From the NCBI GenBank assembly GCA_963575745.1, contig CAUYUJ010000290.1, positions 62,001-115,722 of the forward strand: a stretch of DNA of 53,722 nt. The letters run 5' to 3'. Made by a program: the position numbers and the translations under genes. The stretch is from Prorocentrum cordatum. Lineage: Eukaryota. The notes under the pieces were generated by a model, which did no database searches, was not told where the DNA came from, and worked only from the letters and a program-made list of their open reading frames with translations. Below, piece by piece: positions 6,830-45,190 of the stretch. Positions within the stretch are counted from its first letter, which is position 1. Each line of letters opens with the position of its first letter.

Positions 6830-7170
6830 TCGGAGGTCTCCAGGAACCATCTTGGGGCTCTCTTGGGGCCCTCTTGGGGCGCCGCTGGGGCCCTCGTGGG
6901 GCTCTCTTTTGGGAGGTCTTGGGGCCCTCTTGGTGCCGTTGATGGGGGGTCTGGGAGGCCTCTTGGGGCCGTATTGTGCCCCGTGGCTCAAAAGGATGGG
7001 GCCCTCAATTCTGGGCGCTCTCCCCCCTCGGGCGCTCGATGAGGGCGTCTTGGGGTGCTCTTGGGGCGCTCTCGGGGCGCTCTTGGGCGCTCTTGGGGCT
7101 CTCTCGAGGCCCTCCTGGGCCCCTCTTGGGGCTCTCCTGGGCCGTGTTGGGGCCATCTTGAATCCCCCGG
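6830..7170. repeat. ~11-bp GGGGCCTCTTG-type minisatellite
   Basis: Degenerate tandem units; same family at 16080-16630 and 24160-24880. Confidence 0.85.
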
Positions 7171-9773: not shown

Positions 9774-9836
9774 GAGTGCGATACTGCCGTCGTCGAAGCT
9801 GAAGTCTTCCGGACGCTTCGCGCGCGGGAAGAGAAG
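9774..9836 (+). CDS. CDC5L: CDC5L/Cef1-like splicing factor, third-from-last exon (ECDTAVVEAEVFRTLRAREEK)
   Basis: 63 bp; pyrimidine tract plus cag|G acceptor, AAG|gc donor. It aligns by eye with the CDC5L C-terminal [21 protein letters not shown] segment. Confidence 0.75.
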
Positions 9837-9904
9837 GCCCGCGGCCAAAGGGATGCGCTTGGATTTCCTTGCCTGTGCAGGCAGAGGAACAGGCTCGGAG
9901 GAGG

Positions 9905-11088
<1,184 letters not shown>

Positions 11089-12127
11089 TAGCTCAAGTCG
11101 TACCACAAATCGAGCTTAAAAGCATCTTAGTATTCGGGCCCCCGCTTAGGTCCGAGGGTGGGGGAGGGGAGAGATGGAGGGGATGGACCTTCCTTCAAGG
11201 TCATCTCCAGCAATTCAAATTCATGCCAGATGCTGGGGAGGCCCATATCGCCCCATGTAGCATTGTAGAATGACTCCGGAATCGCGTACCTTAGACATGT
11301 ATTGGAAGCACACCTGGGGCGCACGAGGGCCCTGGATCGCCATACCCGAAAACAGCCATCGAATTCGCGGTAGCGGCGCAGGACCAGAGAGCCAGAGAGC
11401 TGGACAAAGCAAACAGGTCCAACTGGCAACTCATTACTCAGCTTTTTCTCCAGCAAGTTGAAATTCCAGGTGTCCAGCGTGGGCGTAGGCAGCATCGCTT
11501 CACATGGCAATTTCTCCATAGGCCAGTACTTCTTTGGCAGTGCCTGCGAGGAAATGATTGGATTGTTATCAGAGCCGACGGGGAGGGAGGAGGACGAGGA
11601 GCGCAGGCATGATGTCTGTCCGTTCTTCCTCCGCTTCTCCCTTTCACTTCTCGCTCTCGCCCTCCCCCGCTCGCCTGGCCCTCCCCACGCTTCCAGTTGC
11701 CCAACCCATCCCCTTCTGGCCCTGCTTCCCTTTAACCCTTCCCCTCGTCCCGTCCATCCGCCGCTTCTGATCTAAACCGACTGCGATCCGATGTTGTGAT
11801 CGAGTGCGCTGACGTATGGATGACAGTTCACATGACCATGGGATTTGCCGTTGCAGATGTGCAGTCTTAGACTGTATGTGAGGGCCGTTAACAATTCGGC
11901 CAGAGTGGCGTTGGGCTGTTCGAACCTTTGCGTATATTTCCATTTTCTCTTCCCGCATGTTCCGTCCCCCGGAGGGAGCGTACTTATGTGTCGCAACAGT
12001 GTGCGAGACGCACGAGGCGCGAGGCGCACGGGAGCGCGACGCACAGGAGGAACAAGGATTAGGCGAAACGCACAGGAGGATCCATTGCATGTCGCCTGAT
12101 CGCGCTGACGCTTCCGTGCGCTCGGAG

Positions 12128-18725: not shown

Positions 18726-19404
18726 ACGTGACAGCATACATCGGGAAACATGTCCGCCCCCGCCATCCTTTTCGAAAGCCAATGCCCATCATTGTGTCTG
18801 GTGGGCCGCGCGCCACCAACCCCGCTGTCCCTGTCAAAAACCACTTGACAGTGATCGCGGGCTGACCGCGCATGATCCAGACTTAGCCGCGAGGTGCATG
18901 TTGGATTGTTTTGTTTGTCAGGGATTGTAGTCCTGCGCGCAGCAGGAATTATGCTGACACCTCCGCCGTCCCTGTCAGAAAACAATACAAATTGCTCGCG
19001 GGCCTCACGAACATGATTCAAGACTTTGCCCCAAAGTGTACTTCGCATTGTTTTTTTACAGGGATGGTGTGGGGTGGGTGTGGGGGGGCGCATCGGGTTG
19101 GCCGCGCATCCTCCAAATGAGGAGGCATAATGCGGTGCGTATTGCTTTTTGACAGGGATGGTGGGGGGCGGGCCCTCATGGAGTCGGCATGGTTGCGGGT
19201 TGGTCGCCGGCCGGCTGGGACAGGGGCTTACATTAACAAGGAACAGTAATCAACCCCTCCCCGAAGGGGAAGAAGGGCAGATGGGAGACAACCATCCTAG
19301 AACACCTACTCCCTTAAAAGGGCTGGTGGGATTCGAAGGCGAACCTTGTAGCTTTGTGTTATAGGAGAATGCGTGTTGCCGAGGCACGCGCACACACATG
19401 TGGA

Positions 19405-19445
19405 TCGGTAGCATTTTTGCTCAAGACATCAGCATTTTGGCGAAC
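19405..19445 (+). other. Dinoflagellate spliced-leader relics (two, in tandem)
   Basis: TCGGTAGC-ATTTTTGCTCAAG (19405-19425) matches 19/22 of TCCGTAGCCATTTTGGCTCAAG. A more decayed AGCATTTTGGCGAA follows at 19431. Confidence 0.85.
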
Positions 19446-19471
19446 CAGTATTGCCTGGCGCGGTTGAGCCC

Positions 19472-22400
19472 ATGGCTGGCAACTCGCAGGCAATGTTGCG
19501 TCGGGCTCAGGGGCTGGCGGAGTCGTTACTTGAGCAGTTCGGGAGAGGTGGTCAGCAGCCGTCGAGCGCCACATTGTTGGCTCACCTCCGCAGCATGGAC
19601 AGCGACCCAGGAAGCGAGGTAGGTGCGCGGCCTCGAACGCACACATCTGGCAGCGCTGTTCCCTCGTGGCCATGCGCCCAGCCAGATGCCGCCGCAGAGC
19701 TGAGACACAGACCTCGGAGTGGCCTCGCTCAGCGGTGGCAGCGCGCCGCAATGTGGTCGGTGGCGGTGGGCCTGCGCGGGTGCGGCCTTGGCTCGCGGTG
19801 GGGCTCCCTTGTTGGCGCGTGGCCCGCAGACGAGGGCGGCTGGCTGGCCCTGCAGTCGAGTGTGGCGGATGCCGCGGGGTTCCTGGCGGATGTCCGCAGT
19901 GACAATGCCAGCCTCGTGTGTGCTCGCGGGGGCGGGCCGCGCCCGCTGGCTTCAGAGCTTGCGGCCTCGGCGCTAGACGCGCTGGAAGTGAACATGACAC
20001 AGGAGAAAGGCGGGGATGACGTGGACGACGAGGCAGCACAGGCGGCGTCCCCGCGGTGTCCTCGCTGTGGTCGTGCAGCCGCGGACGATCCAGAGGCGCA
20101 GGGGCGGCTGGCCGAGCTGCGGGTGCTGCTAGGGCAGCGGCATGGTGATGAAGACGCCGAGCTCGCCTCCTCCGCGCTGCGTTTCTCTGCCCAGGCCGCC
20201 GCGGACTGGCTGGAGGCGCCCTTGGCTGCCAGCGCTGCAAGCTGCCCGATGGCTTCGTCGAGCGCACGCTCCCGTCTTGCCGCCGCGTGGGACGGAGGCG
20301 GCCTCAACGCGCTAGTAACCGCCGCCGAGTCTCTCGAGTGTGGGGCATGCGACCTGGCGGGCGCGGCGGCTTACCTCGCAGAGCAGGCAGGTGCTGCCGA
20401 CGCGGACGGCCAGCCGACCGTCTGGACGGCCGTCAGCTCCCTGCTGGTGACGCGCTGCTGGCAGGCCGTGGACTTGAGCCAGCTGCTTGCGGCGTGGCGT
20501 TCCTTGGAGCTCGCCGTCTGGCGAGGCCTCGGGCATCCGCTGCTGGCGGAGGTAGCTTCCCAGCACATGGTGAGGCTGCTGCGCTCTGGGCGCTCAGGCC
20601 GGCTGGTCTCCGCTGAGCTCGCGGCTGGCCTGTGCGGCGCCCCAGCGGCGCTGCGCGGCCTCGTGGGCGAGCTCGGGCAGCTGCCGGCAGGCCCTGAGGC
20701 GGAAGCGCTGAAGGCGGGCGCGGCTGGGGATCCCTTGCGCGCGAGCCTCCTGTACCTTAATCTTGCGTCTGCAGCCCCGAGCGCCGCCGAGGTGGCCTCT
20801 GGCCTGGCTCACGCAGGCCTCTGGCTGCGGCAAGGGCTGGAGGCTACTGGCGACGTCCACGAGGCGGTCTCGAAGGCGCTAAGCGTCGTCCGCGCGGCGC
20901 ATTATATTGCGATGTCAATGCTGACCCTGGGGCAACAGTACATCGTCCTAACAGTTTGCGCATCCGCGCTCAGGCCCGTCGCGGGCGTCGCGACGCACGA
21001 CGGCGGGCTGGAGTCTGCAGTCAAGCACAGACTTGCTTGGCTTGCCAGGCAGATCCCCTTCTGGCAGCCGCCCTTGGTGCCGGCAGCACGAGTTCAGCAG
21101 ATTGGGGCGATCGCATCGCGGCTGCGTGCTGCCTTTGTTGCCAGGCTGCGGGCACTGGACCCTGTGGAGCTGAACACCGTGCCAGGTGTAGCGCAGGCGG
21201 CAGCTCTCGGACTCTACGAAGCATCTGTGATGGATGGCTCACTTCGGGAGGCGGAGCAGCGCCACCCTGGGGCGCTCGGCGCGGCCCTCGGTGAGGCAGG
21301 CGTGGCCGCGCAGAGCCTGCAGGAGGACCCTTGGGCGGCGCTGCCACAGCCGGCCGCGCCGCGGCAGACGCGCTTCGCCGCCTTGCGAGGCTTGAAAGTG
21401 GACCTGGCGACCGGTTTCGCCGAGGTGCTGCTCGAGCGGCCGCGCCCAGGGCAGGGCGCCGGGCGAGGGCACATCTCGCCGGCGCTGCTCGCCGACGCAC
21501 TCGCGATCGGGGGCGGGCCCCTGTCGCTGCGACTGGTGCCCAGCGAGGCGGCAGCCCCGCCCAGCTCCTGGTTGCGGCCAGGGCTGCTGCAGCGAGCGGT
21601 CGTTGCCCCGGCGGCGGCGGCGGACAGTGCCCTGAAGGGGCAGCTGCTGCACGCGGCGCTCTTGCTGCGGAGCCTGGCCTCGCAGGAGGCGCAACTGGAG
21701 CCTGGGCCTGCCATGGGAGGCGCGGAGCTGCGGCTCAGGTGTGTGGACAACGCTTACAGTGTGCATCGGCAACCGCACGGGCTGCCGCTGGAGGTGCGGC
21801 TGGGGCCGCCTCGCCTGGAGGTCGCGCCTCTCGGCCAGGAGTTTGACTCGGCGGCTGTTGGGCGGCTGGCCGCGGCCGTCACCGAGCAACTGGGCCGTGC
21901 GGGCGGGGAGCTGGTGGCGCAGCTGTGCTCGGCCCGCGCGGCCCAGACGCTGCTGGCTAAGGATCCCGAGCAGCTGGCGGCCGTGGCCGTTGGGGCTGGG
22001 CAGGAGGTGCGACCTACAGCGGCCCAAGAGGGGTCCTCGGCGGCTCCACGATCAGCGGTGCAGGCGGGTGCAGGGCTCCTGCATGTCGCCAGCCACCCCA
22101 GGAGAGCCGCCTGGTTGGAGCGCCTGGCTGACGTGCACGCCAGTATCTTTCGGGACATGGGCTTCGTGCATTTGGACTCCGCGGGGTGCTGGGACGAGTC
22201 GCACACGTTCGGCAGATGTTGCAGCGTGGGCGAGCACGCCGAGGGCTGCTGGCAACGGGGTTTCACCCAGGAGAGGTGTTGTCGAAGCCTCAGCGTTTCC
22301 GACCTGGACGGAGCCAGCGCGGAGGACGTCGTTGCCGCGCTGCTGCGGCCCCTGTGCGATCAGCTGCCCGCGCTGGACGGCGTCGCGCCTGCTGTGGTCG

Positions 22401-23827
22401 CCTGGCTCCGCGATCCCACGGGCAGCTTGGATGGACGCACGCTGAGCGGCATCCTCGCCGACGCCCTGGATGACGCGGCGCAGGCCTGCACTGGCGGCGT
22501 GCGGCACCAAGGGCCCCCGGAGGACGACGGCGGCCAGAGTCCCGACGTACGTCCACGTCTCGACGAGGTGCCGGTGGCTTGGGTGTCAGGGCCGCTGCTG
22601 CCGCAGCCGTGGCAGCCGTCTGTCGTCCTGGAGCCGGTGCCGCGCCCAGAAGAAGTGGCGCCCGGGGCGGGGGGAGACACGGCGTGGCCAGAGTTGGGCG
22701 ATGGCGTCGAGGCGCTCACCTTGCAGGAGCTGGAACGCCGTGCGCAGCAGGAGCGGGCCCAGTCGCGGGAGGTCCTGGAGCTGGTCGGCGCGGCGCCAGA
22801 GGTGCGCTCGCTGCGCAGTCTCGGGGAAGAGCTGCACAGGCACCTCGAGCGGCTCGGCCGTGCCCGTGCGAGAAGGCACCGCGCGGCCGAGAGGGCGCGG
22901 GCATCTGGCGGCGAGCCTGGCATGCGCAACCCTGACTCCGCTGGACGGCAGGCGTCTGGCGCGGCTGGCGGCCGCGGCTGCCACGACATGGACGGCCTGC
23001 ATGCTGGGCAGGTTTTGCACATCCGGGCGGAGGGCACCCAGGGCGCCTTCGCCGAGGAGGCCGAAGTCCTGAACATTCTGGAGGCCGCGGGGGAGAGCAG
23101 GATTGACGGACACCTGCATCGCCTTCGCCTCCTTCGGTCAGGTGCCACGTCCGTCTACAACCTGTCCGATCCAAGGTGGTCCGTTGCCAGGCTTGGCACT
23201 CAGGAGGACGGCACCATCTGTCAGGGTCTCCAAACCACCGCGAAAGCCGAGCCCGGGGCGAGGTGGCCCGACTGCATCGAGCAGGGTCAGAGCCTTCCTG
23301 GCGCGGACGGCGCAGGCGTATTTGTCAACGTGGCCGCCTTCGGCGCCACCTCCGGCTGCTTCCGAGAGGATTGCAGGCACTCCGACCACTTCGACTCCGA
23401 CTCCCCCGCCCATTGCGCACGCACCTGTGGGCTGGTGCGGGCGTGCCGCTGGTGGTCGTTCTGGTCCTCGCGCATGGGCGGCGGCACATGCTGGCTGCGA
23501 CGGCATGCAGAGCAGCGCGTGAAGATGGCAAGCAGCGTGCTCGGCCCCTCTTCCTGCATACCTCCAGCGGTCAGCTCTTGGGGGCGTGCTGCACCTGGCA
23601 CTGGCGCCCGCCGAGGCGACGGAAACGCCGATGCACATGAGCCCACCCTTTTCGACCTGGTTGGCGGCCGCCGCGGTCTAGGCCCAAGCCACCCATACCA
23701 TCAGTGGGACCTGGTGAAGGTGCTGGAGGCCTTCGGGCACCTGACGCCCTCGCAGGTCGAGGCGAAGGAGCCGTCCCGGCTGCGGGCTTCCGCACTGCGC
23801 TTCGCGCGGAGGGCGCAGAGGTCGTGA
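19472..23827 (+). CDS. Intronless 1451-aa protein with a paired CW-x7/8-CC motif and a C-terminal PAN/Apple-like domain; probable retrogene
   Basis: Stop-free 4.35 kb; ATG 46 nt after the first SL relic. CWDESHTFGRCC..CWQRGFTQERCC at ~22190-22283; CIEQG...HCARTCGLVRACRWWSF...TCWLR...GPSSC at ~23270-23560. Confidence 0.8.
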   Translation: MAGNSQAMLRRAQGLAESLLEQFGRGGQQPSSATLLAHLRSMDSDPGSEVGARPRTHTSGSAVPSWPCAQPDAAAELRHRPRSGLAQRWQRAAMWSVAVGLRGCGLGSRWGSLVGAWPADEGGWLALQSSVADAAGFLADVRSDNASLVCARGGGPRPLASELAASALDALEVNMTQEKGGDDVDDEAAQAASPRCPRCGRAAADDPEAQGRLAELRVLLGQRHGDEDAELASSALRFSAQAAADWLEAPLAASAASCPMASSSARSRLAAAWDGGGLNALVTAAESLECGACDLAGAAAYLAEQAGAADADGQPTVWTAVSSLLVTRCWQAVDLSQLLAAWRSLELAVWRGLGHPLLAEVASQHMVRLLRSGRSGRLVSAELAAGLCGAPAALRGLVGELGQLPAGPEAEALKAGAAGDPLRASLLYLNLASAAPSAAEVASGLAHAGLWLRQGLEATGDVHEAVSKALSVVRAAHYIAMSMLTLGQQYIVLTVCASALRPVAGVATHDGGLESAVKHRLAWLARQIPFWQPPLVPAARVQQIGAIASRLRAAFVARLRALDPVELNTVPGVAQAAALGLYEASVMDGSLREAEQRHPGALGAALGEAGVAAQSLQEDPWAALPQPAAPRQTRFAALRGLKVDLATGFAEVLLERPRPGQGAGRGHISPALLADALAIGGGPLSLRLVPSEAAAPPSSWLRPGLLQRAVVAPAAAADSALKGQLLHAALLLRSLASQEAQLEPGPAMGGAELRLRCVDNAYSVHRQPHGLPLEVRLGPPRLEVAPLGQEFDSAAVGRLAAAVTEQLGRAGGELVAQLCSARAAQTLLAKDPEQLAAVAVGAGQEVRPTAAQEGSSAAPRSAVQAGAGLLHVASHPRRAAWLERLADVHASIFRDMGFVHLDSAGCWDESHTFGRCCSVGEHAEGCWQRGFTQERCCRSLSVSDLDGASAEDVVAALLRPLCDQLPALDGVAPAVVAWLRDPTGSLDGRTLSGILADALDDAAQACTGGVRHQGPPEDDGGQSPDVRPRLDEVPVAWVSGPLLPQPWQPSVVLEPVPRPEEVAPGAGGDTAWPELGDGVEALTLQELERRAQQERAQSREVLELVGAAPEVRSLRSLGEELHRHLERLGRARARRHRAAERARASGGEPGMRNPDSAGRQASGAAGGRGCHDMDGLHAGQVLHIRAEGTQGAFAEEAEVLNILEAAGESRIDGHLHRLRLLRSGATSVYNLSDPRWSVARLGTQEDGTICQGLQTTAKAEPGARWPDCIEQGQSLPGADGAGVFVNVAAFGATSGCFREDCRHSDHFDSDSPAHCARTCGLVRACRWWSFWSSRMGGGTCWLRRHAEQRVKMASSVLGPSSCIPPAVSSWGRAAPGTGARRGDGNADAHEPTLFDLVGGRRGLGPSHPYHQWDLVKVLEAFGHLTPSQVEAKEPSRLRASALRFARRAQRS

Positions 23828-24159: not shown

Positions 24160-24880
24160 CTCTTGGGGCCAAACAGGGCCGTCGTCCAGATGCTTCTTTG
24201 GGAGGCCCTGGGGTCTCTTGAGAGGCCGTCCGGGGGCGCCTGGAAGACATTTTTGAAGCCTTGTAGGCCCTTTTGAGCCTCCGTGGAACCTCCTGGGGTC
24301 TCTTGGGGGCCTTTTGGCTGCATCTTGGGCCATCTTGGGGGCCTCTCGGGGCCTCCTGGGGCCCTCTCGGGGCGGAAGGCTTGAGGTTTCGGTTCGTGGT
24401 CCACATCTTGGGCCCCTCTTGGGGCCGTCTTGGGGCTCTCTTGGGCTGTCTTGGGCGTCTCTTGGGCCGTCTCGGGGCCCATTTGGGCTCTCTGGGGGCC
24501 TTCTTGGGGGCCTCTTGAGCCGTCTTCGTGCGCTCTTGGGGGCCTCTTGGGCCGTCTTGGAGCATCGGAAAGCCGAAAATGCGACAAGGCCAAAATCCTT
24601 CCAAAACCATCGTAAAATTTATGATGTTGGCCTCTCGGGGCGCTCTTGTGAGGCCTCTTGGAGGCCACTTGGAGCGTCTTGGCGGCTTATTGGGCCGTCT
24701 TGGGATCATCTTCGGCGTCTTGGAGCGTCCTTTGGGCGTCTCGGGGGCCTCTTGAGTAGTCTTGGGGGCCTCTTGGGGCCCTCTTGGCGCGCTCTGGGCG
24801 GCCTGAGAGGCCGTACCCAGGAGGAAAACCATCTCTGAGTAGACCTTCCCGGGACCTTCCCGGGACCTTCCCGGGCTGCG
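24160..24880. repeat. 11-bp GGGGCCTCTTG minisatellite element flanking the LINE insertion
   Basis: Degenerate tandem units, ending in (GACCTTCCCGG)x3. Confidence 0.85.
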
Positions 24881-25050
24881 GTCGGGGTACTTTTCGCCGG
24901 GGGACCCCCAGGCCAGGGGCCGCTCAAGCCCTTCTGGCCCAAGCTTCTGCTGAGCCAGATCACCTTGTGCTGTTACCATTTGTGTGCTGGCTTGAGAGCC
25001 TCCTTCTGGAGGTTAAAGCAAGGTCTCACGATTCTTTCACCACCTCAGCC

Positions 25051-26289
25051 ATGGCGCCTGCGTCCAGTGCTGTGGCTCCTTGGAGGCGCTCTGCAGCTGC
25101 TCCTGCTGACGACGACGCCGCTTGGTCCGCTTTCTCGGCTAACGGGAAGACGTGGACATGCGGCAGTTGCGGTTGCAAGCGTAACAAAAGGTCGTGGTGG
25201 TTCTGCAAGCATTGCAAGAAGTACCGTGCTGCACCCGACCCCGACACGTATGCCCCCCCCTCGTGGGGAGGCAGTTGGCACTCGAGCGGGGCGGGAGGAC
25301 ACAGCGGCTGGCCTGGCCTTCCGCTACGTTCTGGACCTCAGTTCGACTCGAATGCAGGTCGTCTCGGAGGCGGAGGCGGTGCTGGTCAAGGCTGGGGTGC
25401 GCCTCAGCCCGTGGATCACGGCAACACCTCCATTCCCGAGTTGGAGAATTTGGTGGATTTGCTCACGAAGTGCGGTGACACGATGGGGGCGAGGAAACAT
25501 CAGTCCATCCTGGACCAGAAGCGCCGTGCTGCTGCAGCCCCAGCTGTTCCGCTGCAGGCCAAGGTCAACAAGGCGTTCCATGATCTTCGCCAGCTTCGTG
25601 AGCGCACCGACAAGGCCTGCAATGTCTATGAGAAGATGGAGGCTGAGTTGGCTGTGCAGCGGAGCCGAATTCAGACCCTCACGAATGAGCTCAAGCAGGC
25701 GGAAGAGGTGCACACGGCCCTGGTGGAGCAGCTTCACAAAGAAGTCGCACTCCCTTCGGTTCCAGGCCCGCCTCCCGCCGCTTGTTTGGACATTGCGGCC
25801 ATCATCCAGGGCAAGGCTGAGGAGATCCCGATTTCGATCGACTCACTGCTGGCTCCTCAGCACGACTACGAGATCGCGGGCGATGACCTCGAGGAGGCAA
25901 ATCGCAGGGCGCAGGAGCTCGAGCAGTCTCTTCAGGATGCAGTTCGCAAGTTGTTCGGAGATGCGCTGGTCAGGGCCAAAGCCTTCCAGGCAGACCAGAA
26001 GATGCTCGAGGGGTTCGCTGCCAAGAGGAGGCGCCAGGACGGAGACGAAGCAGCAGAGCCAGCCGCGGGAGACGGGGATCCCGTTCCTCCTGCCGCCGCC
26101 GCCGCCGCGGGGGGCGACAGCGGGGCTGCTGCTGGAGCTGCCTCCTCAGCCCCCCAGGCCGAGTCGCCAGGGGACAGCGTTGCGGCAGATCCCGATCGCG
26201 CAGATGCTCGAGCTCGTGCTGAACGCCTGCTGTCACAGGCTTCCCCCCCCGCAGCCGAGGGGCAGCGGGGGGGCACCGCGACAGCCTGA
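25051..26289 (+). CDS. LINE ORF1: RanBP2-like zinc finger + coiled coil
   Basis: W-x-C-x2-C-x4-N-x6-C-x2-C (WTCGSCGCKRNKRSWWFCKHC), plus a heptad-rich central helix. Confidence 0.85.
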   Translation: MAPASSAVAPWRRSAAAPADDDAAWSAFSANGKTWTCGSCGCKRNKRSWWFCKHCKKYRAAPDPDTYAPPSWGGSWHSSGAGGHSGWPGLPLRSGPQFDSNAGRLGGGGGAGQGWGAPQPVDHGNTSIPELENLVDLLTKCGDTMGARKHQSILDQKRRAAAAPAVPLQAKVNKAFHDLRQLRERTDKACNVYEKMEAELAVQRSRIQTLTNELKQAEEVHTALVEQLHKEVALPSVPGPPPAACLDIAAIIQGKAEEIPISIDSLLAPQHDYEIAGDDLEEANRRAQELEQSLQDAVRKLFGDALVRAKAFQADQKMLEGFAAKRRRQDGDEAAEPAAGDGDPVPPAAAAAAGGDSGAAAGAASSAPQAESPGDSVAADPDRADARARAERLLSQASPPAAEGQRGGTATA

Positions 26290-26683
26290 CTATTCTCGCC
26301 CGAGCCACATCGACGGTCTTGGGCCCGTTTTTGCGGGCCAGCCGTCTTACTTGTCTAACTTTAGTCTCTCGGCCTCTCGGCCTCACCTCCGTCGTTTCCT
26401 CCGCTCCCGTGGTGCGTGTCCCTCAGGCTGTGGCCTGAAGGCTGCTGTTCGTCACACTTGCTGGAGGGCCAAACGAATTTTGTCTGGTGATGGTCAGAGG
26501 CTCGACTCCCTGCAGGTTACCCTTTCCAAGCCTGCCGATTTTGCTCGGCCTAGCCCAGCTTACCCAGTGTTAGCTGCGCCTGGCTCTCAGTGCCCGATTG
26601 AGGTGGTGCCAGGCCCCAGGATCTCCCAGGCTCCCCTCCCGTGCTCTTTCCCTGCCCCTCCTGGCCTCCTGGAGCCTGAAGGG

Positions 26684-29600
26684 ATGAGCTCGGTCGCTTT
26701 GTCAGTCCGAACTCTCAACTGCAACAGTTGGGGCACCCTTAAGAAGATGTTACCTCACACGCCTTCAGCGGTCCTGATGGTGCAGGAACACAGATTGGCG
26801 GGTAGTGAAGAAGTCGCCCAGGCCTCCTCCTGGTGTGCCCGTAATGGCTGGAAATCGTTGTGGACCCCAGCTACTCTCACGGATAAAGGCACGTCAGGGG
26901 GCACTGCTTTGCTTGTGAAAAGCTGGCTTGGTCTGTTTCCCCCCCCCTTCTGGACACGCTATCGTTCCTGGTCGGGCCACTCACGGGATCATTCAGGTTC
27001 CTGGTGGTCTCAGCTACCACATGTTTTCGGTTTACCTGCATGATGGGGAAGGTTTGACTGAGCGTAATCTGGAGCTCTTGAGTTGCGTAGGCGCCTGTGC
27101 TACTACGAGCTGCTCCTGTTTTGTCGTGGGAGGAGACTTCAACGTCTCTCCTTGCGAGCTGGAGAGCAGCAAGTTTGTCTCCCAGCTTCAGGGCCAGATC
27201 ATCATTCCTGGAGGTCACACTCATTTTGGTCAGGGGGCCCCCTCCACCCTTGACCACTTCGTTTGCAGTGGGGGGCTTGGAAAAGCTGTGGACTCCTGCT
27301 GGATCGATCTGACGACGGAGCTTAGTCCCCATCGTCCCGTGGAGCTTCAGTTCCACCGATCCCCTGCCACCCTCAAGGCCCTCAGTTTTAGGAAGCCACC
27401 GCCGCTGCCGAGAGACCGAGTCATAGGTCCGATGCTTCCCCCACCGTGCTGGGACCATGTGATCTCGCGAGCTCAGGCTGGTCTTGATGCTGTCGCCGCA
27501 GGCGACGCCGAGGCTGCCCTCAGCCACTTGTCGCCGGCCTATGGAGCGTGGGCTGATAAGGCGGAGGAGGAGCTGGTCCACTTGTTGGGGGCGGATCTGG
27601 TGAAGGCAGGATGCAGGAGCAAGGGGCCTCAGCTCGTGTGGCGCAGCTTAGTAGGCCGAGATTCTCAGCCAAGGTATCCCGAGCACCGCGCCATCTGCTG
27701 GCTGGTGGCTCAGTTTCGCGCTTTTATGGGGCTGCTGCGGGCCGACCAAGGTTGTGGGAGCCAGGCCGCCAGCTTGCATGCTTTGCTTGCTAGCCCTCCT
27801 CCCGCGATTTCTCGGCACTCTAGCAAGTATGCCTCTTCATTCAGCCGTGTTAAAGATTTTACTGCTGCTTTGCAGGGCGCTCTCCGCCAGGCCCCTTCTG
27901 AGCAAATTGTGAAAGGTGATGAGCTCCTGTGCACCCTCATCACTGTCTTGGAAGGGGCCAACGGGGAGTATCGGTCCAAAGCGCAGTCTGACTGGAGAGC
28001 CTGGCTCACGGAGGGCCTTGATCAAGGGGCTCGTCGGGTGCACGCGATTGTCCGTGACCCCACCCCCTGGGTCCCTACCACGACCCTCGCCAGAGATGGA
28101 TCTGTTGTTGCCGACCCCCTTTCTCTGTTGTCCCACGAAGGCACCAAGTTTGCCAAGTTTTGGGATGTCGGAGCTGGCAATCCTGTGGGTTGCACTTTGG
28201 TGGAAGCTCTCCCCAGGGCCGATCCCGCTCAGTTGCGGGCTGTCAGCAAGAAATATAAGAGAACCTCGGCTGTCACTTATGACGGGTTTGATTGCCGTCA
28301 CTATCACCTTCTGTGTGACGACGGACTGGTTGCGCTTGGCATGCTCTTTCAGCTGATGGAGTCGGTTGGCCAACTTCCGCGCCAGATTTCTGCGGTGTTG
28401 CTTGCCCTGCTCTCGAAACCCAGCGGTGGCTACAGACCGATAGGGGTGTTCTGCTCCTGGTATAGGGTCTGGGGACGCCTCAGGCGTCCCCTTGCCTTAC
28501 ACTGGGAGCAGCAACACCCCCGTCGGTACTGGGCTGCGGGGGCGTTTCGTGGAGCTGCGGATGTCGTCTGGCGTCAATCGTTTCGCGCTGAGACGGGGAC
28601 CTCTAGAAAGGAAGAGAGTGCCAGCGTCTTCTATGATATGCTCAAGTATTATGAGACGATTGACTTAGACGTTTTAGAGCAGCGATGTCACCAACATAAT
28701 TTCCCGACTGTGCTGACTAGGCTTACCCTTTATGCGTATAGGTGTGGCCGCTTTGTCTCCATCGCTGGCATCCTGGATGGGCCGCACTTTGTGCGGAAAG
28801 GAGTCATTGCGGGCTGCAGCATGGCCACTACTCATATACGCATTTATGGTTTGTCTTCGTTCGAAAAGCTCCCCTCTGTCCCCTCTGTTGATTTTGACAT
28901 TTATATTGACGATACTGGAGTGTCTTGCACGGGGTCCAGAGCACATGTTGTCTCGTCCATTGTTACCGTCTCTCTCGCTCTTCATCATGCTATTACTGAT
29001 GAGAATGAGATGAACTGTCAGCTTGCTCTCGACAAGATTTGTACCGTTGCGTCCTTCAAAGGCCTGGCCACCGCGCTGGCTGCGGCCCTGGGGCAGTTTG
29101 GAGGCAAGTTCACTGCCTCGACTGTGAACCTCGGAGTCGACTACAGTGCTGGCACCTCGGTCAGGGCCTCAGGGCGGAGCTCGAAGCTCAAGAGCCGTGT
29201 GGCGCTGCTCTGCAGGAAAGCCCGTCGTCTCAAGCGTCAGGCAGGTTACCTTGGTCGCAAAGCCCTCAGAATTTTCGCTGCGGGCCCCCTCCCTGGAGGG
29301 GCCTATGGGGCGGACATCCTGGGGGTGAGCGACCAGGTCCTCCTAACCATGAGGCGGCAGGCTTTCAAGACTGTGAGGCCTTTTGCCAAAAGTAGGTCTC
29401 TCACGGCGGTCAGCCTTCTGTCGGAGGACCCGTGCTGGCGAGCTGCTTCGGCTCCCATCCTGCGTTGGAGCAAAGAGGTCTGGCTGGCCCAAACTCGCGA
29501 GTTCCCCTGGTCCATTCCTCATAGGGAGCTCCGAGACGGTTTCAGGAGTGTGTTTGCGCTGCCTAGGGTTACTTGGCCTACTGTTAAGGGCCCCGTGTCT

Positions 29601-31535
29601 GCCCTTCGCCTTACCCTCCTTCGCCTCGGTTGGACCATGGTTGACTATGCCACTATCTTGGACGACCGAGGTTATCGTTTGCAGCTCGGCCTGATTCCCC
29701 CCGAGTTGTTGGAAACTATGTGCAAAGAGGCCTACATGCGTGGGCTCGAGCGGGATCTTGGGGGCAAATGGGGGCTGGATTGCAGGGCGTGTCTGGACAT
29801 TCCCAGAGCTGCTTGTGTCAGTAAGAAGTTCTCTCCTGCGCAGAGGGGCTGGATTCGGGCTTGCTCTTGTGATGCCATCTGGTCTGCGGACAAGGCCTTG
29901 GCATGTGGGTATCAGGTAGACCCGCTTTGTCCTCTTTGCTCTGCTTCGCCCGACTCAGTGTTTCACAGGCTTTGGCAGTGCACGGCGACGGAAGTCCTAG
30001 AGTCGCGGACTCAGCTGGTCCCGGCCTCAGTTGTGCAAGATGCCATCGCCGTGTGGACAGCTCAGGCGGAACCCGACCCTCATGTGCGAGCTCTTTATAC
30101 CAGAGGAGCTTTCGCTCATCCCGCCGACGTGTTGCCGCGTCCTGTTGAGGAGGGAACGAATGCCCTTCAGTTCGTTTGGCATTGTGACGAGCTTCCTAGC
30201 CCTGAAGGTCCCAGGGTCCCAGTGAACGGGGAGATGTGGGGGCACGTCTTTATAGATGGGTCCTGTCAGCGCCACCCGATCAAGGAATTGTCTAGAGCTG
30301 CCTATGCGATTACTATGAATGCTGAGGATGGCACGTGCCTTGGAGAGGCGAGAGGCCCTGTCTGGGCTCATCTTCCTCAGACGCCTCAGGCGGCTGAATA
30401 TGCTGCCAGATGTGTTGCCGCACAGTTCTTGGTGTTGCCGACCACTATTTATTCGGACTGTGCGAACGTTGTGTCTCACAGCACATTGCCCTTGCCTGAG
30501 AGGTACTCGGGCAAGAGGTCTTATTCAGGAATGATCATGTGTGCCAACAACTTTGAGGGCCGCCTTTTGGAAGGAATTGTTAAGGTCAAAGCTCATTTAG
30601 ATGTGCACCAGGAGGGCATCTCCGAGAGAGAACGTTTCCTCAGGCGTGGAAACGCTGATGCGGATGTGGGGGCTAAACATGCCCTTCAGCTTCACCCATC
30701 AGACCCGACCGAACTTGCCAATGTGGACAAGCTTGTGGAAGCGGCCAGGGGTTATTGCATCCTTGCTGCTAACTTGCTTCCTCTTTGGCCTGAGCTCTCT
30801 CTCGACGTTCCCTATCTCCCTCCTCCTCCTGCTGGGCATTTAAGCTCCCGCAGTAAGGTTGGCCATCGTTGGGAAGTCTGGGCTGACGTCTGGAGGTGTG
30901 CGGTGTGCCTCCGCGGGAACAGGGGCTCGTCTCGGCCCCCCCCTGGAAGGTGCCCCCAGGATTCCAAGCTGCATGCGGCTAGGCAAGATGCCCTTGGGCA
31001 TAGGACTGTTGCATTCGACTGTTCTGACAAGACAGTGCTTTTCATATGCCTTAAATGTAAATGCCACTCCACAGGTGGCAGGATTAGAGGCCTAGGCGAA
31101 GTTTGCAAGAAGCCCACCCGTGCGGGCCGTCAGGGTTGGGCCGCCTTGTGCAAGGGTATTCACCCGCAGTACTCCAAGTCCAGCAAAGGTGTCACAGTTG
31201 ATGACACCTCGCTTGTGCGTTGCTTCAACTCGTATTTGGTTTCGAATCCTCAATTTTCGGAGGAAGATGTTTCTAGCTCTGTGCCCTCTGGCCCGTCTGG
31301 CAGTGCGGCCAGCGCTGGAGGGCAAGAGCGTCCCAGCTTCACAGTTCCAGCTATTGCAGCCACTGCCTGCGCTCATGCCAGCAGCGTTGCGCCCAGCTCT
31401 TCCTCGAGTGATGTGGTCGCCTCGGCCTCAGCCACCAGGGAGTGCTTGAATCGCATTGCTGCGTCTCTCCGCTGCGAAGCGGAAGACTTGGGAACGGGTG
31501 GGACAGTGGAGGTGGGGTCGGGAGATTCGGATTGA
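26684..31535 (+). CDS. LINE ORF2 (endonuclease, reverse transcriptase, zinc finger, RNase H) with a single frameshift at the C9 run ~26939-26947
   Basis: APE: LNCNSW, VQEH, GGTALL, SVYL, GGDFN, TLDHF, SPH. RT: KPSGGYRPIG, DMLKYYE, GVIAGCS, YIDD. CPLC..HRLWQC. RNase H: FIDGS, AAEY, YSDC, KVKAH, GNADAD. Confidence 0.93.
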
Positions 31536-32279
31536 ATTTCAGTGTTCTCGCCTGCCTTTCTCTTTTGGCAGGGTTGAACCTGTTGTTCGTGCGTTGGCCT
31601 TCGGAGCCTCTCCTTACTTTCAGTTTCTGTTCTCAATCTTATCCTCGGCCGTGCTTTGCTTCCTGGGCTTTCAGGCTGTTGTGGCATAGGTTGCTGCCCG
31701 CGACCTAAGCGGCGACCGCCTGTCCGCTTAGGACGCTCTCCGCGTTGCCGATTTTTGCCAGTTGAGGGTCAGCTGGTGCCTGTCCTCGCCTGTCCGTCGC
31801 CTCTGTGACAGGCTTGGCTCTTGTTTGGCGAATTTATTTCTTTTTGTGCACTGTCTCTGGCATGTCTGGCAGACAGTGGGAGCCCGAGCCGAGGGTCGAT
31901 CCGTGCGGGGAGGGGGCCATAGTGGGCGCTCCGAAAGGAACTCGCGAAGCCCCCTCCCCAAAGCGGCTCTCGCCGAGGCGAGGTCTTTCAGTGCTGGCAG
32001 GTCCCGCCCTGCCAGTTCTCTGCACTATGCGGTGGGTCCGTGGAGATCAAAAAAAAAGGCCAGGGGCCGCCCCGCGCGCCCGAACTAGAAGAATTGTGAA
32101 CCAGTTACCAGAGATTTTAGCACGCCTCTGGCCCGTTGGGCCGGCGAATTGCGCGCCGTGGGGCTGAGCATCTGATTGCGGGCTGCTGCGGAGCAGGCGT
32201 GCACAGGCGCGCTGCATTCCGTGTGGGGCACGATCTACATGAAGGGGGGCGCCGAATAATGCAGATGCCTTCGCGCGAG

Positions 32280-32890: not shown

Positions 32891-34439
32891 CGCTATTCAG
32901 ATATTTGTTCCCACGATAGCGCAGGTGTTCCCACGTGGTGATCGTGGTGGGATGGCGTGCGTACCCATCCGCTGATTGATGTGAGGCTGGCTTTGCCTCG
33001 GCTAGAACATAAGTGCGCGAAACGTGCGTGCTTTTCTAGTGATGATATGTGGTGCAACCTATGTGGTGCTGACTACTTGCTACAATCGATGGCGTGCCAG
33101 ATATGGGTGCGTTCAATGTGTTGCAAAACGTGGGCGGCGATAGTTGTATGCATCCAGAAACGCCAGCCGCCGCATGGGGCGCGCCCGAGTCGCCCGAGGG
33201 CACCCAACGGGCGAAAACTCGGAACGTCCAGCCAGCGCACAGGGCGCCCACGAGGCGCCCACGGGCTCCCTTCGCACAAAAACCTTGAACACCGAGCCAA
33301 CGCACGGGCGCCCACGAGGCGCCCATGGACACCCACCGGGCCCAAACCCGGAACATCAAGCGAGTTTCAGCACTACAAACTGAGAATACCTAGGTGCAGA
33401 CCTTGGTTTGGGAACTGGGGCTCGTCCGGAAATTTCAACTGCGGCTCCCGCCAAGAAACACCCATAAGGCTCTAGCGTGTCAATCGGGCATCGCAACGTA
33501 TTGCAGGCACCGTAAGGCACTATCGACAGGTACCACCCATGGAGCAGCAGGGCGGCAACCAGCAATCGCAACACATGGAGCGTAACATATTTGAGCGTCG
33601 TATGTATCAAGGCACGGGGTACCACCCATGATGTACCAGGGCGACAGCCGCCAATCGCAACGAAGTGGGGTATTACAGGGCACCGCCCGTGGATCGCCAG
33701 GGCGGCACCGAATACATCAAATTCCTTCCGAAGCATGTGCGAAACCAAAGTGCAAACATCATTTAGGGAAGAATGAAGATCAGGAACATTACCACTACCA
33801 GCTATTGCGTAATCGTTCGTTCCGCTGTGCATAGGCGGATCAAAAAAAAAGGCGGAGGAGAAGGACGAGTGGATGGAGGAGGAGGAAGGGCATGTCGCGA
33901 GAGGTCTTGCACTCGGTGCCGACGGACCGAGCGGGCGTCGAAGGTCCCTGGTTTGTTGCCTCTGCCGCGTGGGCGCGAGAGCACCCCCATCCATCTTCTT
34001 CGTCGTCGTCCTCCTCCGTTTCCTCCTCCTGCGAGTTACGGCGTTGAAGCGGCGGGGATCCCGGCGCGGGCGTTCAATGTTGAAGGCCGCCAGTGGCCTG
34101 GAATCGGTCGATATCGAACGACCTGCGCAATCAGAAAGCCGTGATTGTTCAAGGTTTGACGATCCGCGCGGTGTCAGGAATCAACGTTGACGTCGTCACG
34201 ATCTTTCCCTTTCATGGTCCTCCTCATGCTGCTGTGCTGCTGCTGCTGCTGCTCCTCTCCTGAGCGCGAGATCATCCGGGCGCAGCGCCCAAGACCGCCC
34301 CTCGCGCCCGGGCCGCTGCTGGAAGCCCCGAGCCATGTCGAGCAAGTTCGCCAAGAGCTTCCAGATCCCGCCGGACCTCCATGGAGGAAGGAAGGAGGAG
34401 GAATGGACGAACATGGAGGATGGGGATCAAGGAGTTCGA

Positions 34440-34565
34440 TGTAGAGGACGAGGACGGGGAGCAGGACGAGGAGGAGGACAAGGAGGAGGACGAGGAGGAG
34501 GAGGACGAGGAGGACTAGGAGGAGGAGGACGACGAGGAGGAGGAGGAGGAGGAAGAAGAATAAGA
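34440..34565. repeat. (GGA)n microsatellite
   Basis: Direct reading. Confidence 0.95.
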
Positions 34566-34669
34566 GAAGCAGGATGATGGACCGCGATGAGGAACGAGGA
34601 CGGATTAGGAGGCGTGCAGGGCATTGGCACGTGGTTTGTGATACCAATTGTATTGAGTGGCTCAGAGCA

Positions 34670-35067
34670 GGGTGATGGTCATAACGGTGATGTTGGTGGT
34701 GATGATGATGATGCTGATGATTGAGATGATGATGCTGATGATGATGACGATGATGATGCTGATGATGATGATTATGATGACTGATGATGACTGATGATGA
34801 TGACGATGATGATGCTGATGATGATGCTGTTTCTGGTGATGAGGATGCTGATGATGATGATGATGCTGATGATGATGATGATGCTGATGCTGATGATGAT
34901 GATGAATATGATGATGATGCTGATGATGATGATGGTGGTGGTGATGATGATGATGACGATGATGATGATGATGGTGATGACGATGATGATGCTGATGATG
35001 ATGCTGCTTCTGGTGATGATGATGCTGATGATGCTGATGATGGTGATGATGATGATGATGGTGATGG

Positions 35068-35116
<49 letters not shown>

Positions 35117-35214
35117 GGTGGTGATGATGATGATGACGATGATGCTGATGATGATGCTGATGATGATGATGCTGATGATGCTGATGCTGATGCTGATGAT
35201 GCTGATGCTGATGC

Positions 35215-35249
<35 letters not shown>

Positions 35250-35458
35250 GTGATGATGCTGATGATGATGATGGTGATGTTGATGTTGATGATGCTGAAT
35301 ATGATGATGATGATGCTGATGATGATGATGATGCTGATGCTGATGCTGATGATGATGATGATGCTGATGATGATGATGGTGGTGGTGGTGGTGGTGATGA
35401 TGATGATGAGTATGACGATGATGCTGATGCTGATGCTGATGATGATGATGATGCTGAC

Positions 35459-35494
<36 letters not shown>

Positions 35495-35616
35495 TGACGA
35501 TGACGATGACGATGATGATGACGATGATGATGATGATGATGATGATGCTGATGATGATGATGATGCTGATGCTGATGATGATGATGATGCTGATGATGAT
35601 GATGATGATCATGATC

Positions 35617-35691
<75 letters not shown>

Positions 35692-35698
35692 CTGATGG

Positions 35699-35739
<41 letters not shown>

Positions 35740-35816
35740 CTGATGATGATGATGATGATGTGATGATGATGGTGGTGGTGGTGGTGGTGGTGGTGGTGGT
35801 GATGATGATGATGATT

Positions 35817-35906
<90 letters not shown>

Positions 35907-35918
35907 CTGATGATGGTG
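34670..35918. repeat. Degenerate (GAT)n array
   Basis: About 1.25 kb. Confidence 0.98.
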
Positions 35919-36383
35919 GGGGTGCGTGCACGGGCATGATTCGCGGGGAGTGGGGTGTCGTAGCGTCAGCAGCAGAGCGGTGCAGCGTCGCTTGCTTTGC
36001 AGCCCCTTTTGGTTCAGGGCGACATGTTCGTCCATGTCCCGCCGAACCTCCCTGCTTGGGCGATTCTCGGTTGCAGGTAGCCCACCTCGGCCAGGAGTAC
36101 GTGTCTGAGGTGGCCTGGGAGCGCGAGGCCGCCATATCGCGCTCGGCGGGAGGATCACCGCCCGCTCCCGTACCCGAGGCACCCTCGGGACCGCTCGGCC
36201 TCGAGCCGACCTGGCCGTCCGTCGAACCGCTGGAGTGCCCAGTGGCAGAGGCGGTGGAGGAACAGGACACGCTGGCCTGGAGCTGGTCGCTCGCCTGGTG
36301 GGTCGGGCACGTGGCTGGAGGCGTGCTGTGACGGCTCCGCCGCGAACAGCGCCAGGCCGCGCAGGCCGAGCACACCAGCGGAG

Positions 36384-44749: not shown

Positions 44750-44977
44750 CATGCTGATGGTGATGATGATGATCATGCTGATGCTGATGCTTATGCTTCT
44801 GATGATGATTATCATATTGGTTATGATGAAACGTATGGCGGTGATGCTGCTGATGATGATGCTGATGCCCATGCTACTGCTGATGATGACGATGCTGATC
44901 ATATAGGTGATGATGGATATGACGATGATGGTGATGATGAGGATGATTGTGGTGATGCGTCTGATGATGATGATGAT

Positions 44978-45008
<31 letters not shown>

Positions 45009-45190
45009 ATAATGAAACTGGTGATGATGATGATGATGATGCTGATGATGATGAGGATGATGATGATGATGATGATGCTGATGATGATGATGATGATGAA
45101 ACTGGTGATGATGATGATGCTGATGATGATGATGATGACGGATCTGTTGATGATGCTGATGTTGTTGATGGTGATGATGCCGATGATGAC

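What the first reader, a model, noticed from the sequence alone, without database searches (positions are those of the whole stretch)
24911..24945. Full-length LINE whose exact 5' end is spliced-leader sequence: a trans-spliced retrotransposon
Seen: right after the left TSD (GGCCAGGGGCCGC) the element begins (GC)TCAAG-CCCTTCTGGCCCAAG. This is the 3' end of DinoSL followed by a 12/15 match to the 15-nt relic CCATTTTGGCTCAAG. Known: that 15-mer is what remains when a genomic SL copy is re-trans-spliced at its internal AG. Inference: the LINE RNA is SL-trans-spliced, copied into the SL, and the copied SL's AG serves as the acceptor in the next cycle. That would let the element be cut out of read-through transcripts without its own promoter. 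The GC shared by TSD and SL looks like second-strand microhomology.
Basis: partly seen in the sequence, partly recalled or inferred. Interest (0 to 1): 0.8.

Follow-up and report, generated by a model that had tools for sequence, protein, structure and literature searches.

The report
LINE retrotransposon starting with spliced-leader relic
A recently inserted 7.1-kb jumping gene in what looks like a dinoflagellate genome begins with the tail of the host's spliced leader and a worn second copy of it, which suggests its RNA was processed like a host messenger RNA before being copied back into DNA.

Summary
A 7,134-bp non-LTR retrotransposon lies at window 24924-32057 on the + strand. It is bounded by an exact 13-bp target-site duplication and ends in A9. 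It has an ORF1 and an ORF2 with endonuclease, RT, zf-RVT and RNase H regions. ORF2 is broken once, in a C9 run where other copies have C8.

Its first 20 bases are TCAAG followed by CCCTTCTGGCCCAAG. That is the last 5 nt of DinoSL and then, in exact register, a 12/15 match to the 15-nt DinoSL relic. The chance of this composite at a fixed position is about 5e-9. About 6e-4 are expected in the whole window, and one was seen in 300 simulated windows.

A near-complete DinoSL lies 5.5 kb upstream on the same strand, in front of a 1,451-aa ORF. This shows the genome makes SL-tagged retrocopies.

The best reading is that the LINE RNA was SL trans-spliced at least twice in its lineage and the SL was copied by target-primed reverse transcription. 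I could not test fresh splicing in each cycle, reuse of the copied AG as acceptor, or independence from a promoter. No RNA run was listed, and no other 5' junction could be reached. The finding is an expected corollary of known dinoflagellate biology, but I found it in no paper I searched. Interest is moderate.

The parts
24911..24923 (.). Left target-site duplication, GGCCAGGGGCCGC. Its last two bases, GC, could equally be the SL bases that precede TCAAG.
   Evidence: Exact repeat of 32058-32070; sequence.
24924..24928 (+). TCAAG, the last 5 nt of DinoSL and the first bases of the insert.
   Evidence: Paralogous host-repeat contigs lack it.
24929..24943 (+). Degenerate 15-nt DinoSL relic, CCCTTCTGGCCCAAG. 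It matches CCATTTTGGCTCAAG at 12 of 15 positions and sits in exact register after the SL end.
   Evidence: relic definition from PMC12014239 passages.
24944..25050 (+). Rest of the 5' UTR. The 127-nt UTR has no ATG before ORF1. Further relics here are not statistically supported.
   Evidence: Sequence (score 34 against a null of 31.2 +/- 3.4; 16 of 65 control segments scored as high or higher).
25051..26289 (+). ORF1, 412 aa. It has an N-terminal Cys-rich knuckle (W.C..CGC.RNK......CKHCK) followed by a coiled coil.
   Evidence: 96 relatives at E<=1e-3 among 1.84 billion representatives; the motif is seen in the fetched relatives. No Pfam family reached its cut-off.
26684..31535 (+). ORF2. The APE-type endonuclease spans about 26687-27400, RT about 28413-28949, zf-RVT about 29871-29993 and RNase H about 30246-30488. 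The frame is broken once in the C9 run at 26939-26947.
   Evidence: Pfam: RVT_1 3.7e-5 and Exo_endo_phos 0.0046; zf-RVT 8e-4 and RNase_H 0.0038; all are below the curated cut-offs. tblastn of P0001 switches from frame +2 to frame +3 at about 26944-26946. Other copies lack 1 base at 26939 in X1, X2 and X3. The nearest Atlas clusters carry RVT_1, RNase_H and Exo_endo_phos.
31536..32048 (+). 3' UTR. The bin 31709-31975 is over-represented in reads: depth 156 against about 10 for the body in X2.
32049..32057 (+). Poly(A) tail, A9.
32058..32070 (.). Right target-site duplication, GGCCAGGGGCCGC.
19406..19425 (+). Context: a near-complete DinoSL copy, CGGTAGCATTTTTGCTCAAG (2 substitutions and 1 deletion against the 21-mer). 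It lies 46 nt upstream of the ATG of a 1,451-aa ORF at 19472-23827, on the same strand as the LINE.
   Evidence: A search for the 21-mer with 3 or fewer mismatches expected 0.00 by chance.

Best explanation
The element is a young, near-full-length APE-type LINE with ORF1 and an ORF2 holding EN, RT, zf-RVT and RNase H regions. Its RNA intermediate carried the dinoflagellate spliced leader. I propose the following history. In an earlier cycle an SL-capped LINE mRNA was reverse-transcribed into the genome. When that copy was transcribed, a new SL was trans-spliced at the AG inside the copied SL, which left the 15-nt relic. The relic then drifted to CCCTTCTGGCCCAAG in the master lineage. The RNA that made the present copy again bore an SL joined directly to the relic. 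Target-primed reverse transcription at ...A|GGCCAGGGGCCGC copied it from the poly(A) tail up into the SL and stopped or was joined 15-17 nt short of the RNA's 5' end, leaving TCAAG or GCTCAAG. Shown here: the anatomy, the TSD and poly(A), the SL and relic register and their statistics, and the use of DinoSL retrocopying in this genome. Inferred: that the last-cycle SL was freshly spliced. Also inferred: that any copy keeping the terminal AG of the SL fragment offers an acceptor that would regenerate the same SL-relic mRNA from read-through transcripts of the surrounding + strand gene array.
For: The TSD, A9 tail and domain content are. The composite SL-end plus relic sits exactly at base 1 of the insert; it has a per-position probability of about 5e-9, and simulations gave 1 hit in 300 windows anywhere. 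Both boundaries are the ones splicing would give: the outer fragment ends at the SL exon's last base, and the relic begins right after SL position 7, as the published definition of the relic states. The same pattern of a truncated CTCAAG followed by the relic dominates published retrogene transcript 5' ends (PMC12014239 passage). A near-full DinoSL lies at 19406-19425 before an ORF on the same strand, and another SL-like stretch lies at 36004 before an ATG. Relic-like 15-mers are enriched in the window: 6 found against 1.41 expected, and 0 of 100 shuffles reached 6. Song et al. 2017 report 'RNA-dependent DNA replication' enriched among genes preceded by DinoSL relicts (PMC5585692 passages). 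In run X1 a contig at element-like depth (26.3) covers 24953 with only one difference there (A>T). By my reading of its distance to the contig end, it starts at about 24923. If so, the SL-like start is shared by a copy whose neighbouring contig is about 3.5% diverged (16 differences in 463 nt). This is a hint only.
Against: Only one copy with a 5' junction was available. No RNA evidence exists here; that attempt is listed under Tried and rejected. The outer SL fragment is only 5 nt (7 with the ambiguous GC), so a fresh SL in the last cycle rests on a short string. An inherited genomic SL fragment that was transcribed from upstream and then 5'-truncated would look the same. The relic has 3 mismatches. 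Further relics deeper in the 5' UTR are not supported. None of the 18 related metagenome loci reaches an element 5' end. None of the 106 stored relatives shows SL-encoded peptides in its first 150 residues. The neighbouring SL-tagged retrogene shows no TSD or poly(A), so a link between LINE machinery and retrogenes is not shown.
Confidence: 0.65

Rival explanations
1. The SL is inherited rather than fresh. The SL-derived bases are old DNA carried in the family's 5' UTR from one or two ancient trans-splicing and retroposition events. Present-day copies are made from RNAs that start at an upstream or internal promoter; a TTTT/TTTG motif in SL relicts has been proposed to act as a promoter. Under this reading TCAAG is simply where this cDNA was truncated or joined.
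For: The relic is degenerate although the insertion is young (exact TSD, open ORF1), so the relic at least was inherited. The X1 contig hint suggests a diverged copy has the same first bases. Song et al. 2017 propose that SL relicts retain a promoter motif (PMC5585692 abstract passage).
Against: The relic here has lost the TTTT run (CCCTTCTGG). The insert begins in exact SL register rather than at an arbitrary base upstream. Dinoflagellate nuclear mRNAs are generally reported to be trans-spliced.
Confidence: 0.25
2. Template switching. At the end of first-strand synthesis the LINE reverse transcriptase jumped from the LINE RNA onto an SL-bearing host mRNA or onto SL RNA. This would make a chimeric 5' end without the LINE RNA ever being trans-spliced.
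For: Template-switch chimeras are known for L1 (recalled, not checked here). SL-bearing RNAs are abundant in these cells.
Against: A jump would not be expected to land so that the SL exon's last base abuts the relic and the relic abuts the body in exact splice register. A jump onto unspliced SL RNA would bring intron sequence, and none is seen.
Confidence: 0.05
3. Chance resemblance, or an SL-gene-specific LINE like SLACS, CZAR or CRE of trypanosomatids that sits inside an SL RNA gene.
For: The outer fragment is only 5 nt and the relic matches at 12 of 15.
Against: The joint probability is about 5e-9 at the fixed position. The flanks are an 11/21-nt satellite and a repeat with no SL gene sequence: the 21-mer has 0 matches at 3 or fewer mismatches, the only near-full SL lies 5.5 kb away, and the TSD is unrelated to the SL.
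Confidence: 0.02

Closest known systems
DinoSL-relic retrogenes ('recycled' cDNAs; DinoRL) of dinoflagellates. Slamovits & Keeling 2008 is recalled and was not read. I read passages of Song et al. 2017 (PMC5585692), PMC12014239 and PMC7245778.
   Same: It has the same signature: an SL or truncated SL followed in register by the 15-nt relic at the 5' end of a retroposed unit. The truncated CTCAAG plus relic pattern is reported for retrogene transcripts.
   Different: The tagged unit is the autonomous LINE itself, with an exact TSD and a poly(A) tail, not a host gene. The papers I searched treat retrotransposons only as the presumed source of reverse transcriptase, and one review favours LTR/copia elements (PMC6050394 passage).
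SymbioLINE and other dinoflagellate LINEs (de Mendoza et al. 2018, PMC5890265, passages).
   Same: It has two ORFs, ORF2 with Exo_endo_phos, RVT_1 and RNase H regions, TSDs and conserved UTRs.
   Different: ORF1 here has no DNMT; it is a Cys knuckle plus coiled coil. A9 is present, whereas SymbioLINE-Dnmt elements are described as lacking poly(A). That paper has 0 occurrences of 'spliced leader' or 'DinoSL'. The ORF2 relatives found here are only 31-40% identical and are unnamed.
LINEs that are cut out of host co-transcripts or use special 5' ends. R2 with its 5' self-cleaving ribozyme is recalled. L1Tc with its internal Pr77 promoter giving unspliced transcripts in a trans-splicing organism comes from PMC1874656 (title and abstract from the search listing only).
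   Same: It solves the same problem: an element without a conventional upstream promoter must define its RNA's 5' end inside longer or read-through transcripts.
   Different: Here the proposed solution is the host's SL trans-splicing, with an acceptor that is re-copied at each cycle, rather than a ribozyme or internal promoter. This part is inferred and not shown.
SLACS, CZAR and CRE, the site-specific LINEs in trypanosomatid SL RNA genes (recalled).
   Same: They are LINEs physically associated with spliced-leader sequence at the 5' side.
   Different: Those elements insert into SL genes. This one lies in an unrelated satellite-rich repeat, and its SL bases are inside the TSD-delimited insert.

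Membership tests
APE-type non-LTR retrotransposon (LINE) | Reverse transcriptase domain | tested here: met
   Pfam RVT_1 E 3.7e-5 at 24 bits, below the 29.6 cut-off. 8 of 8 homologues found are 31-40% identical over 91-97% of the RT region, and 6 of those 8 carry precomputed PF00078.
APE-type non-LTR retrotransposon (LINE) | Apurinic-type endonuclease N-terminal to the RT | tested here: met
   Exo_endo_phos E 0.0046, below the cut-off. tblastn of P0001 residues 55-260 aligns to 26687-27290 across one frameshift.
APE-type non-LTR retrotransposon (LINE) | Target-site duplication and a 3' A-tail (TPRT hallmarks) | tested here: met
   Exact 13-bp TSD at both ends and an A9 tail. Empty paralogous sites appear in 4 of 4 runs.
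APE-type non-LTR retrotransposon (LINE) | Multi-copy family with a 5'-truncation gradient | tested here: inconclusive
   There is one copy in the window. Contigs 96-99% alike occur in 4 runs. X1 depth rises from about 25-60 at the 5' end to about 100-300 at the 3' end, but contig depths are not copy numbers.
DinoSL-tagged retrocopy | SL-derived sequence at the 5' end of the retroposed unit, followed in register by the 15-nt relic | tested here: met
   TCAAG plus a 12/15 relic at bases 1-20 of the insert.
DinoSL-tagged retrocopy | The host is a dinoflagellate that uses the canonical DinoSL | tested here: met
   A near-full DinoSL lies at 19406-19425 upstream of an ORF. No taxon name was available from any tool, so the taxon is inferred from this.
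DinoSL-tagged retrocopy | Transcripts carrying a new SL joined to the relic | not testable with these tools
   No listed run is on record as RNA.
SymbioLINE-Dnmt | DNMT domain in ORF1 | tested here: not met
   ORF1 gave no DNMT hit in Pfam.
SL-gene-specific LINE (SLACS/CZAR/CRE type) | Insertion inside an SL RNA gene | tested here: not met
   The flanks are an 11/21-nt satellite and an unrelated repeat. No SL sequence lies outside the insert.

The most novel reading that the evidence does not exclude
Dinoflagellate LINEs of this kind may have no promoter and depend on the host's spliced-leader trans-splicing to be cut out of read-through transcripts of unidirectional gene arrays. Each new copy would carry, in the copied SL's terminal or internal AG, a heritable and self-renewing trans-splice acceptor. 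The same TPRT machinery that copies the LINE's own SL-capped RNA would also make the thousands of DinoSL-tagged retrogenes. That would settle which reverse transcriptase drives dinoflagellate gene 'recycling'.
Probability: 0.3. Interest if true: 0.75.

Novelty: new variant of a known kind. Interest (0 to 1): 0.5.

Why it matters
Dinoflagellate genomes hold thousands of retrogenes tagged by spliced-leader relics. The passages I read say the reverse transcriptase behind them is unknown, and one review leans towards LTR/copia elements. Here a LINE carries classical TPRT hallmarks (exact TSD, A-tail) and the SL-relic tag on the same insert. This shows in a single molecule that LINE-type retroposition in this genome can copy an SL-bearing RNA almost to its 5' end. 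It makes LINEs a concrete candidate for the retrogene machinery. It also suggests a way for a LINE to define its RNA 5' end without an internal promoter or a ribozyme. Both ideas can be tested directly with the source assembly and with SL-primed or full-length cDNA.

Tried and rejected
1. Other copies in the window: there are none. BLASTN and TBLASTN of the element gave only self hits.

2. Own genome: none is held for this window.

3. Earlier findings of this scan: 3 look-ups, by place, by words and by sequence, returned nothing.

4. Related loci. ORF1 in metagenome contigs: 304 pattern matches, 0 confirmed. The ORF2 alignment A1 in viral contigs: 13 pattern matches, 0 confirmed. A1 in metagenome contigs: 18 loci, all fragments. 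Only L007 and L017 reach the endonuclease, and neither contains an element 5' end. Scanning all 18 loci on both strands for the relic (3 or fewer mismatches) and the SL (5 or fewer) gave 2 minus-strand relic hits and no plus-strand hit.

5. Protein searches for 5' ends read through into protein. ORF1 at near lengths gave none. The 5' UTR plus ORF1 N-terminus at shorter lengths gave 109 candidates and 0 hits. 0 of 106 stored proteins have SL-encoded peptides, with at most 1 substitution, in their first 150 residues.

6. RNA evidence: no RNA holder is listed among the 14 runs. This says nothing about expression.

7. Laid contigs: no loose end at the 5' junction appears among the 24 shown, and 488 more are not shown. 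No exact-TSD empty site (a skip of 7,147) appears among the 15 joints shown, and 87 more are not shown. The shown joints skip 7,151-7,157 and so come from paralogous repeat copies that differ by a few bases.

8. Additional relics deeper in the 5' UTR, for example CCATTT..TGGCTTGAG at about 24976, looked suggestive by eye but are not supported. The summed alignment score was 34 against 31.2 +/- 3.4 in 65 control segments, 16 of which scored as high or higher; 123 of 500 shuffles also did.

9. TSD or poly(A) for the neighbouring SL-tagged retrogene: the best shared word was only 8 nt and there was no A-run of 5 or more.

10. Rfam on the window at gathering thresholds: 0 matches.

11. Pfam on 12 other long ORFs: 0 families.

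12. Literature. I read passages in 9 papers. None states that a LINE's 5' end is DinoSL. Subscription papers such as Slamovits & Keeling 2008, and supplementary files, were not seen and may bear on this.

Full report
What is there. Window 24924-32057 (+ strand, 7,134 bp) is a discrete insertion. The 13-mer GGCCAGGGGCCGC occurs exactly twice in the window, at 24911-24923 and 32058-32070. The second copy follows ...GGAGATC and nine A's at 32049-32057. Inside lie five parts:
- a 127-nt leader with no ATG;
- ORF1 at 25051-26289, 412 aa;
- a 394-nt spacer;
- ORF2, from the ATG at 26684 to 31535;
- a 513-nt 3' UTR.

ORF2 gives weak Pfam hits to Exo_endo_phos (E 0.0046), RVT_1 (3.7e-5), zf-RVT (8e-4) and RNase_H (0.0038). 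All are below the curated cut-offs. Three results back these hits. Eight unnamed homologues are 31-40% identical over 91-97% of the RT region, and six of them carry PF00078. P0001 aligns by tblastn from the endonuclease to the C-terminus. The nearest ESM-Atlas clusters carry RVT_1, RNase_H and Exo_endo_phos.

The endonuclease frame switches from +2 to +3 at about 26944-26946, inside a run of nine C's at 26939-26947. Contigs in X1, X2 and X3 all lack one base there. This copy therefore has a homopolymer frameshift, either real or an assembly error.

ORF1 has an N-terminal Cys knuckle and a coiled coil. It belongs to a family with 96 relatives at E<=1e-3 among 1.84 billion representatives.

The insertion site. 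The element sits in very abundant repeat DNA. An 11/21-nt satellite, (GGGGCCTCTTG)n, lies upstream. The flanks have contig depths of thousands to tens of thousands in four runs, against single to low-hundreds depths for the element body. Contigs from paralogous copies of that repeat pass from ...CCCCCAGG directly into GGCCGCCCCGCGCGC. This shows as loose ends at 24912 in 4 of 4 runs and as joints from 24902-24909 to 32060-32062 in X1 and X2. These act as empty sites and place TCAAG inside the insert. They skip 7,151-7,157 bases rather than the 7,147 expected from the exact TSD, so they are paralogues that differ by a few bases, not the allelic empty site.

The 5' end. The insert starts TCAAG CCCTTCTGGCCCAAG. 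DinoSL is DCCGTAGCCATTTTGGCTCAAG (PMC7245778 passage). [quoted passage not shown] The insert therefore begins with the last five SL bases (seven if the GC of the TSD is counted), followed in exact register by a 12/15 relic.

With the window's base composition, the probability of this composite at one fixed position is 5.3e-9, and 5.7e-4 are expected over both strands of the window. 300 first-order Markov windows produced one hit in total. The real window has one, at the first base of the element. The same paper notes that retrogene transcript 5' ends are dominated by a truncated CTCAAG followed by the relic, which is the pattern seen here.

I looked for further relics deeper in the leader. One stretch at about 24976 looked suggestive, but the score does not stand out from controls, so I do not claim it.

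Does this genome use DinoSL? No taxon name was available. However, 5.5 kb upstream on the same strand lies CGGTAGCATTTTTGCTCAAG at 19406-19425. It differs from the 21-mer by 2 substitutions and 1 deletion. It lies 46 nt before the ATG of a 1,451-aa ORF at 19472-23827. Another SL-like stretch, preceded by AG, lies at 36004 just before an ATG. Relic-like 15-mers are enriched in the window: 6 were found against 1.41 expected, and 0 of 100 shuffles reached 6. The host therefore makes SL-tagged retrocopies, and the LINE is co-oriented with them.

Mechanism. The two boundaries are exactly those that SL trans-splicing produces: the SL exon's last base abuts the relic, and the relic starts after SL position 7. 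I therefore read the 5' end as the footprint of at least two rounds in which the LINE's RNA was trans-spliced and then reverse-transcribed.

The insertion is young: the TSD is exact and ORF1 is open. The relic's three changes must therefore have been inherited from the master lineage, whereas the outer TCAAG is unaltered.

The copy lacks the first 15-17 nt of the putative SL-capped RNA. This is ordinary 5' truncation or microhomology-mediated joining. The shared GC is compatible with that, but it is only 2 nt.

A consequence follows, which is inferred and not shown. Any copy that keeps the SL's terminal AG offers an acceptor which, if used, regenerates the same SL-relic mRNA. The feature could therefore perpetuate itself in read-through transcripts of the + strand array.

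What I could not do. I could not see a second 5' junction or any RNA:
- There is no other copy in the window.
- No genome is held for this window.
- ORF1-based and ORF2-based scans of metagenome and viral contigs returned only 18 fragments, none with an element 5' end.
- Protein searches designed to catch 5' read-through fragments found nothing.
- None of the 14 listed runs is on record as RNA.
- The single read-laying run showed contigs 96-99% alike over the body, but its tables were cut before the junction details.

One hint comes from that call. In X1 a contig at depth 26.3 covers 24953 with a single A>T change, 31 bases from its end. If that end is its left end, the contig starts at about 24923, and the SL-like start would be shared by a copy whose neighbouring contig differs at 16 of 463 bases. 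This cannot separate an orthologous locus from an independent copy.

Rivals:
- Inherited SL DNA transcribed from elsewhere, with no fresh splicing in the last cycle. This cannot be excluded with one copy (about 0.25).
- Template switching onto SL-bearing RNA. The exact splice register makes this unlikely (about 0.05).
- Chance, or an SL-gene-specific LINE. The statistics and the flanks effectively exclude both.

Known or new. SL-relic retrogenes are well known. Song et al. 2017 noted that 'RNA-dependent DNA replication' genes are enriched among SL-relict genes. De Mendoza et al. 2018 described dinoflagellate LINEs with the same ORF2 domains, TSDs and conserved UTRs, but that paper never mentions the spliced leader. 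In those and in passages from nine papers I found no statement that a LINE's own 5' end is DinoSL, nor that trans-splicing serves LINE expression. Subscription papers and supplements were not seen.

I rate this a new variant of known kinds. It is an expected corollary to a specialist. It is also a clean single-molecule link between TPRT hallmarks and the SL tag, and a testable idea for promoter-less LINE expression. Interest: 0.5.

Noticed in passing
window 19404-23827 (+): This looks like an SL-tagged retrogene. A near-full DinoSL lies at 19406-19425, followed directly by a second, more degenerate SL-like stretch at about 19426-19445. Then comes a 1,451-aa Ala/Gly/Leu-rich ORF (19472-23827) with no Pfam family. 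No TSD or poly(A) was found for it.
   Followed up: partly
window 35990-36030 (+): GCAG CCCCTTTTGGTTCAGG resembles an SL relic that kept its internal AG. It lies 6 nt before an ATG at 36025. It may mark another retroposed gene on the + strand.
   Followed up: no
window 24289-24804 and 24842-24875: An 11/21/32-nt satellite, (GGGGCCTCTTG)n, and a (GACCTTCCCGG)x3 repeat lie upstream of the insertion. Contig depths there reach 31,748 in X1 and 36,882 in X2, against tens for the LINE body. This is one of the most abundant repeats in those samples.
   Followed up: partly
window 31709-31975 (LINE 3' UTR): The 31709-31975 bin of the 3' UTR has much higher contig depth than the body: 156 against about 10 in X2, and 301 against about 100 in X1. 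This could reflect many heavily 5'-truncated copies, or a non-autonomous element that shares the LINE's 3' tail.
   Followed up: no
L007:1-786 (+), metagenome contig: A related LINE (ORF2 34% identical) has an upstream ORF encoding an AlkB-like 2OG-Fe(II) oxygenase (Pfam 2OG-FeII_Oxy_2, E 1.5e-24). This is a nucleic-acid-modifying enzyme in the ORF1 position, reminiscent of the DNMT in SymbioLINEs. The contig is cut inside this ORF, so the element's 5' end is missing.
   Followed up: partly
protein P0011 (representative library): This 220-aa fragment is 97% identical to ORF1. Its first 31 or so residues match the overlapping +1 frame of the window (the 25250 frame). Another copy of the family therefore carries an indel near the ORF1 N-terminus.
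   Followed up: no
window ~9800-12000, ~34000-36000, ~44000-46000: These are long tandem arrays with 9-18-nt spacing, lower GC (0.48-0.50) and strong GC skew (up to 0.5). They dominate the repeat finder's output.
   Followed up: no
window 46428-47456 (+): A weak match to the copia-type gag family (Retrotran_gag_2, E 0.0042, below the cut-off), followed by further + strand ORFs up to about 49940 with no Pfam family. It may be a degraded LTR element.
   Followed up: no
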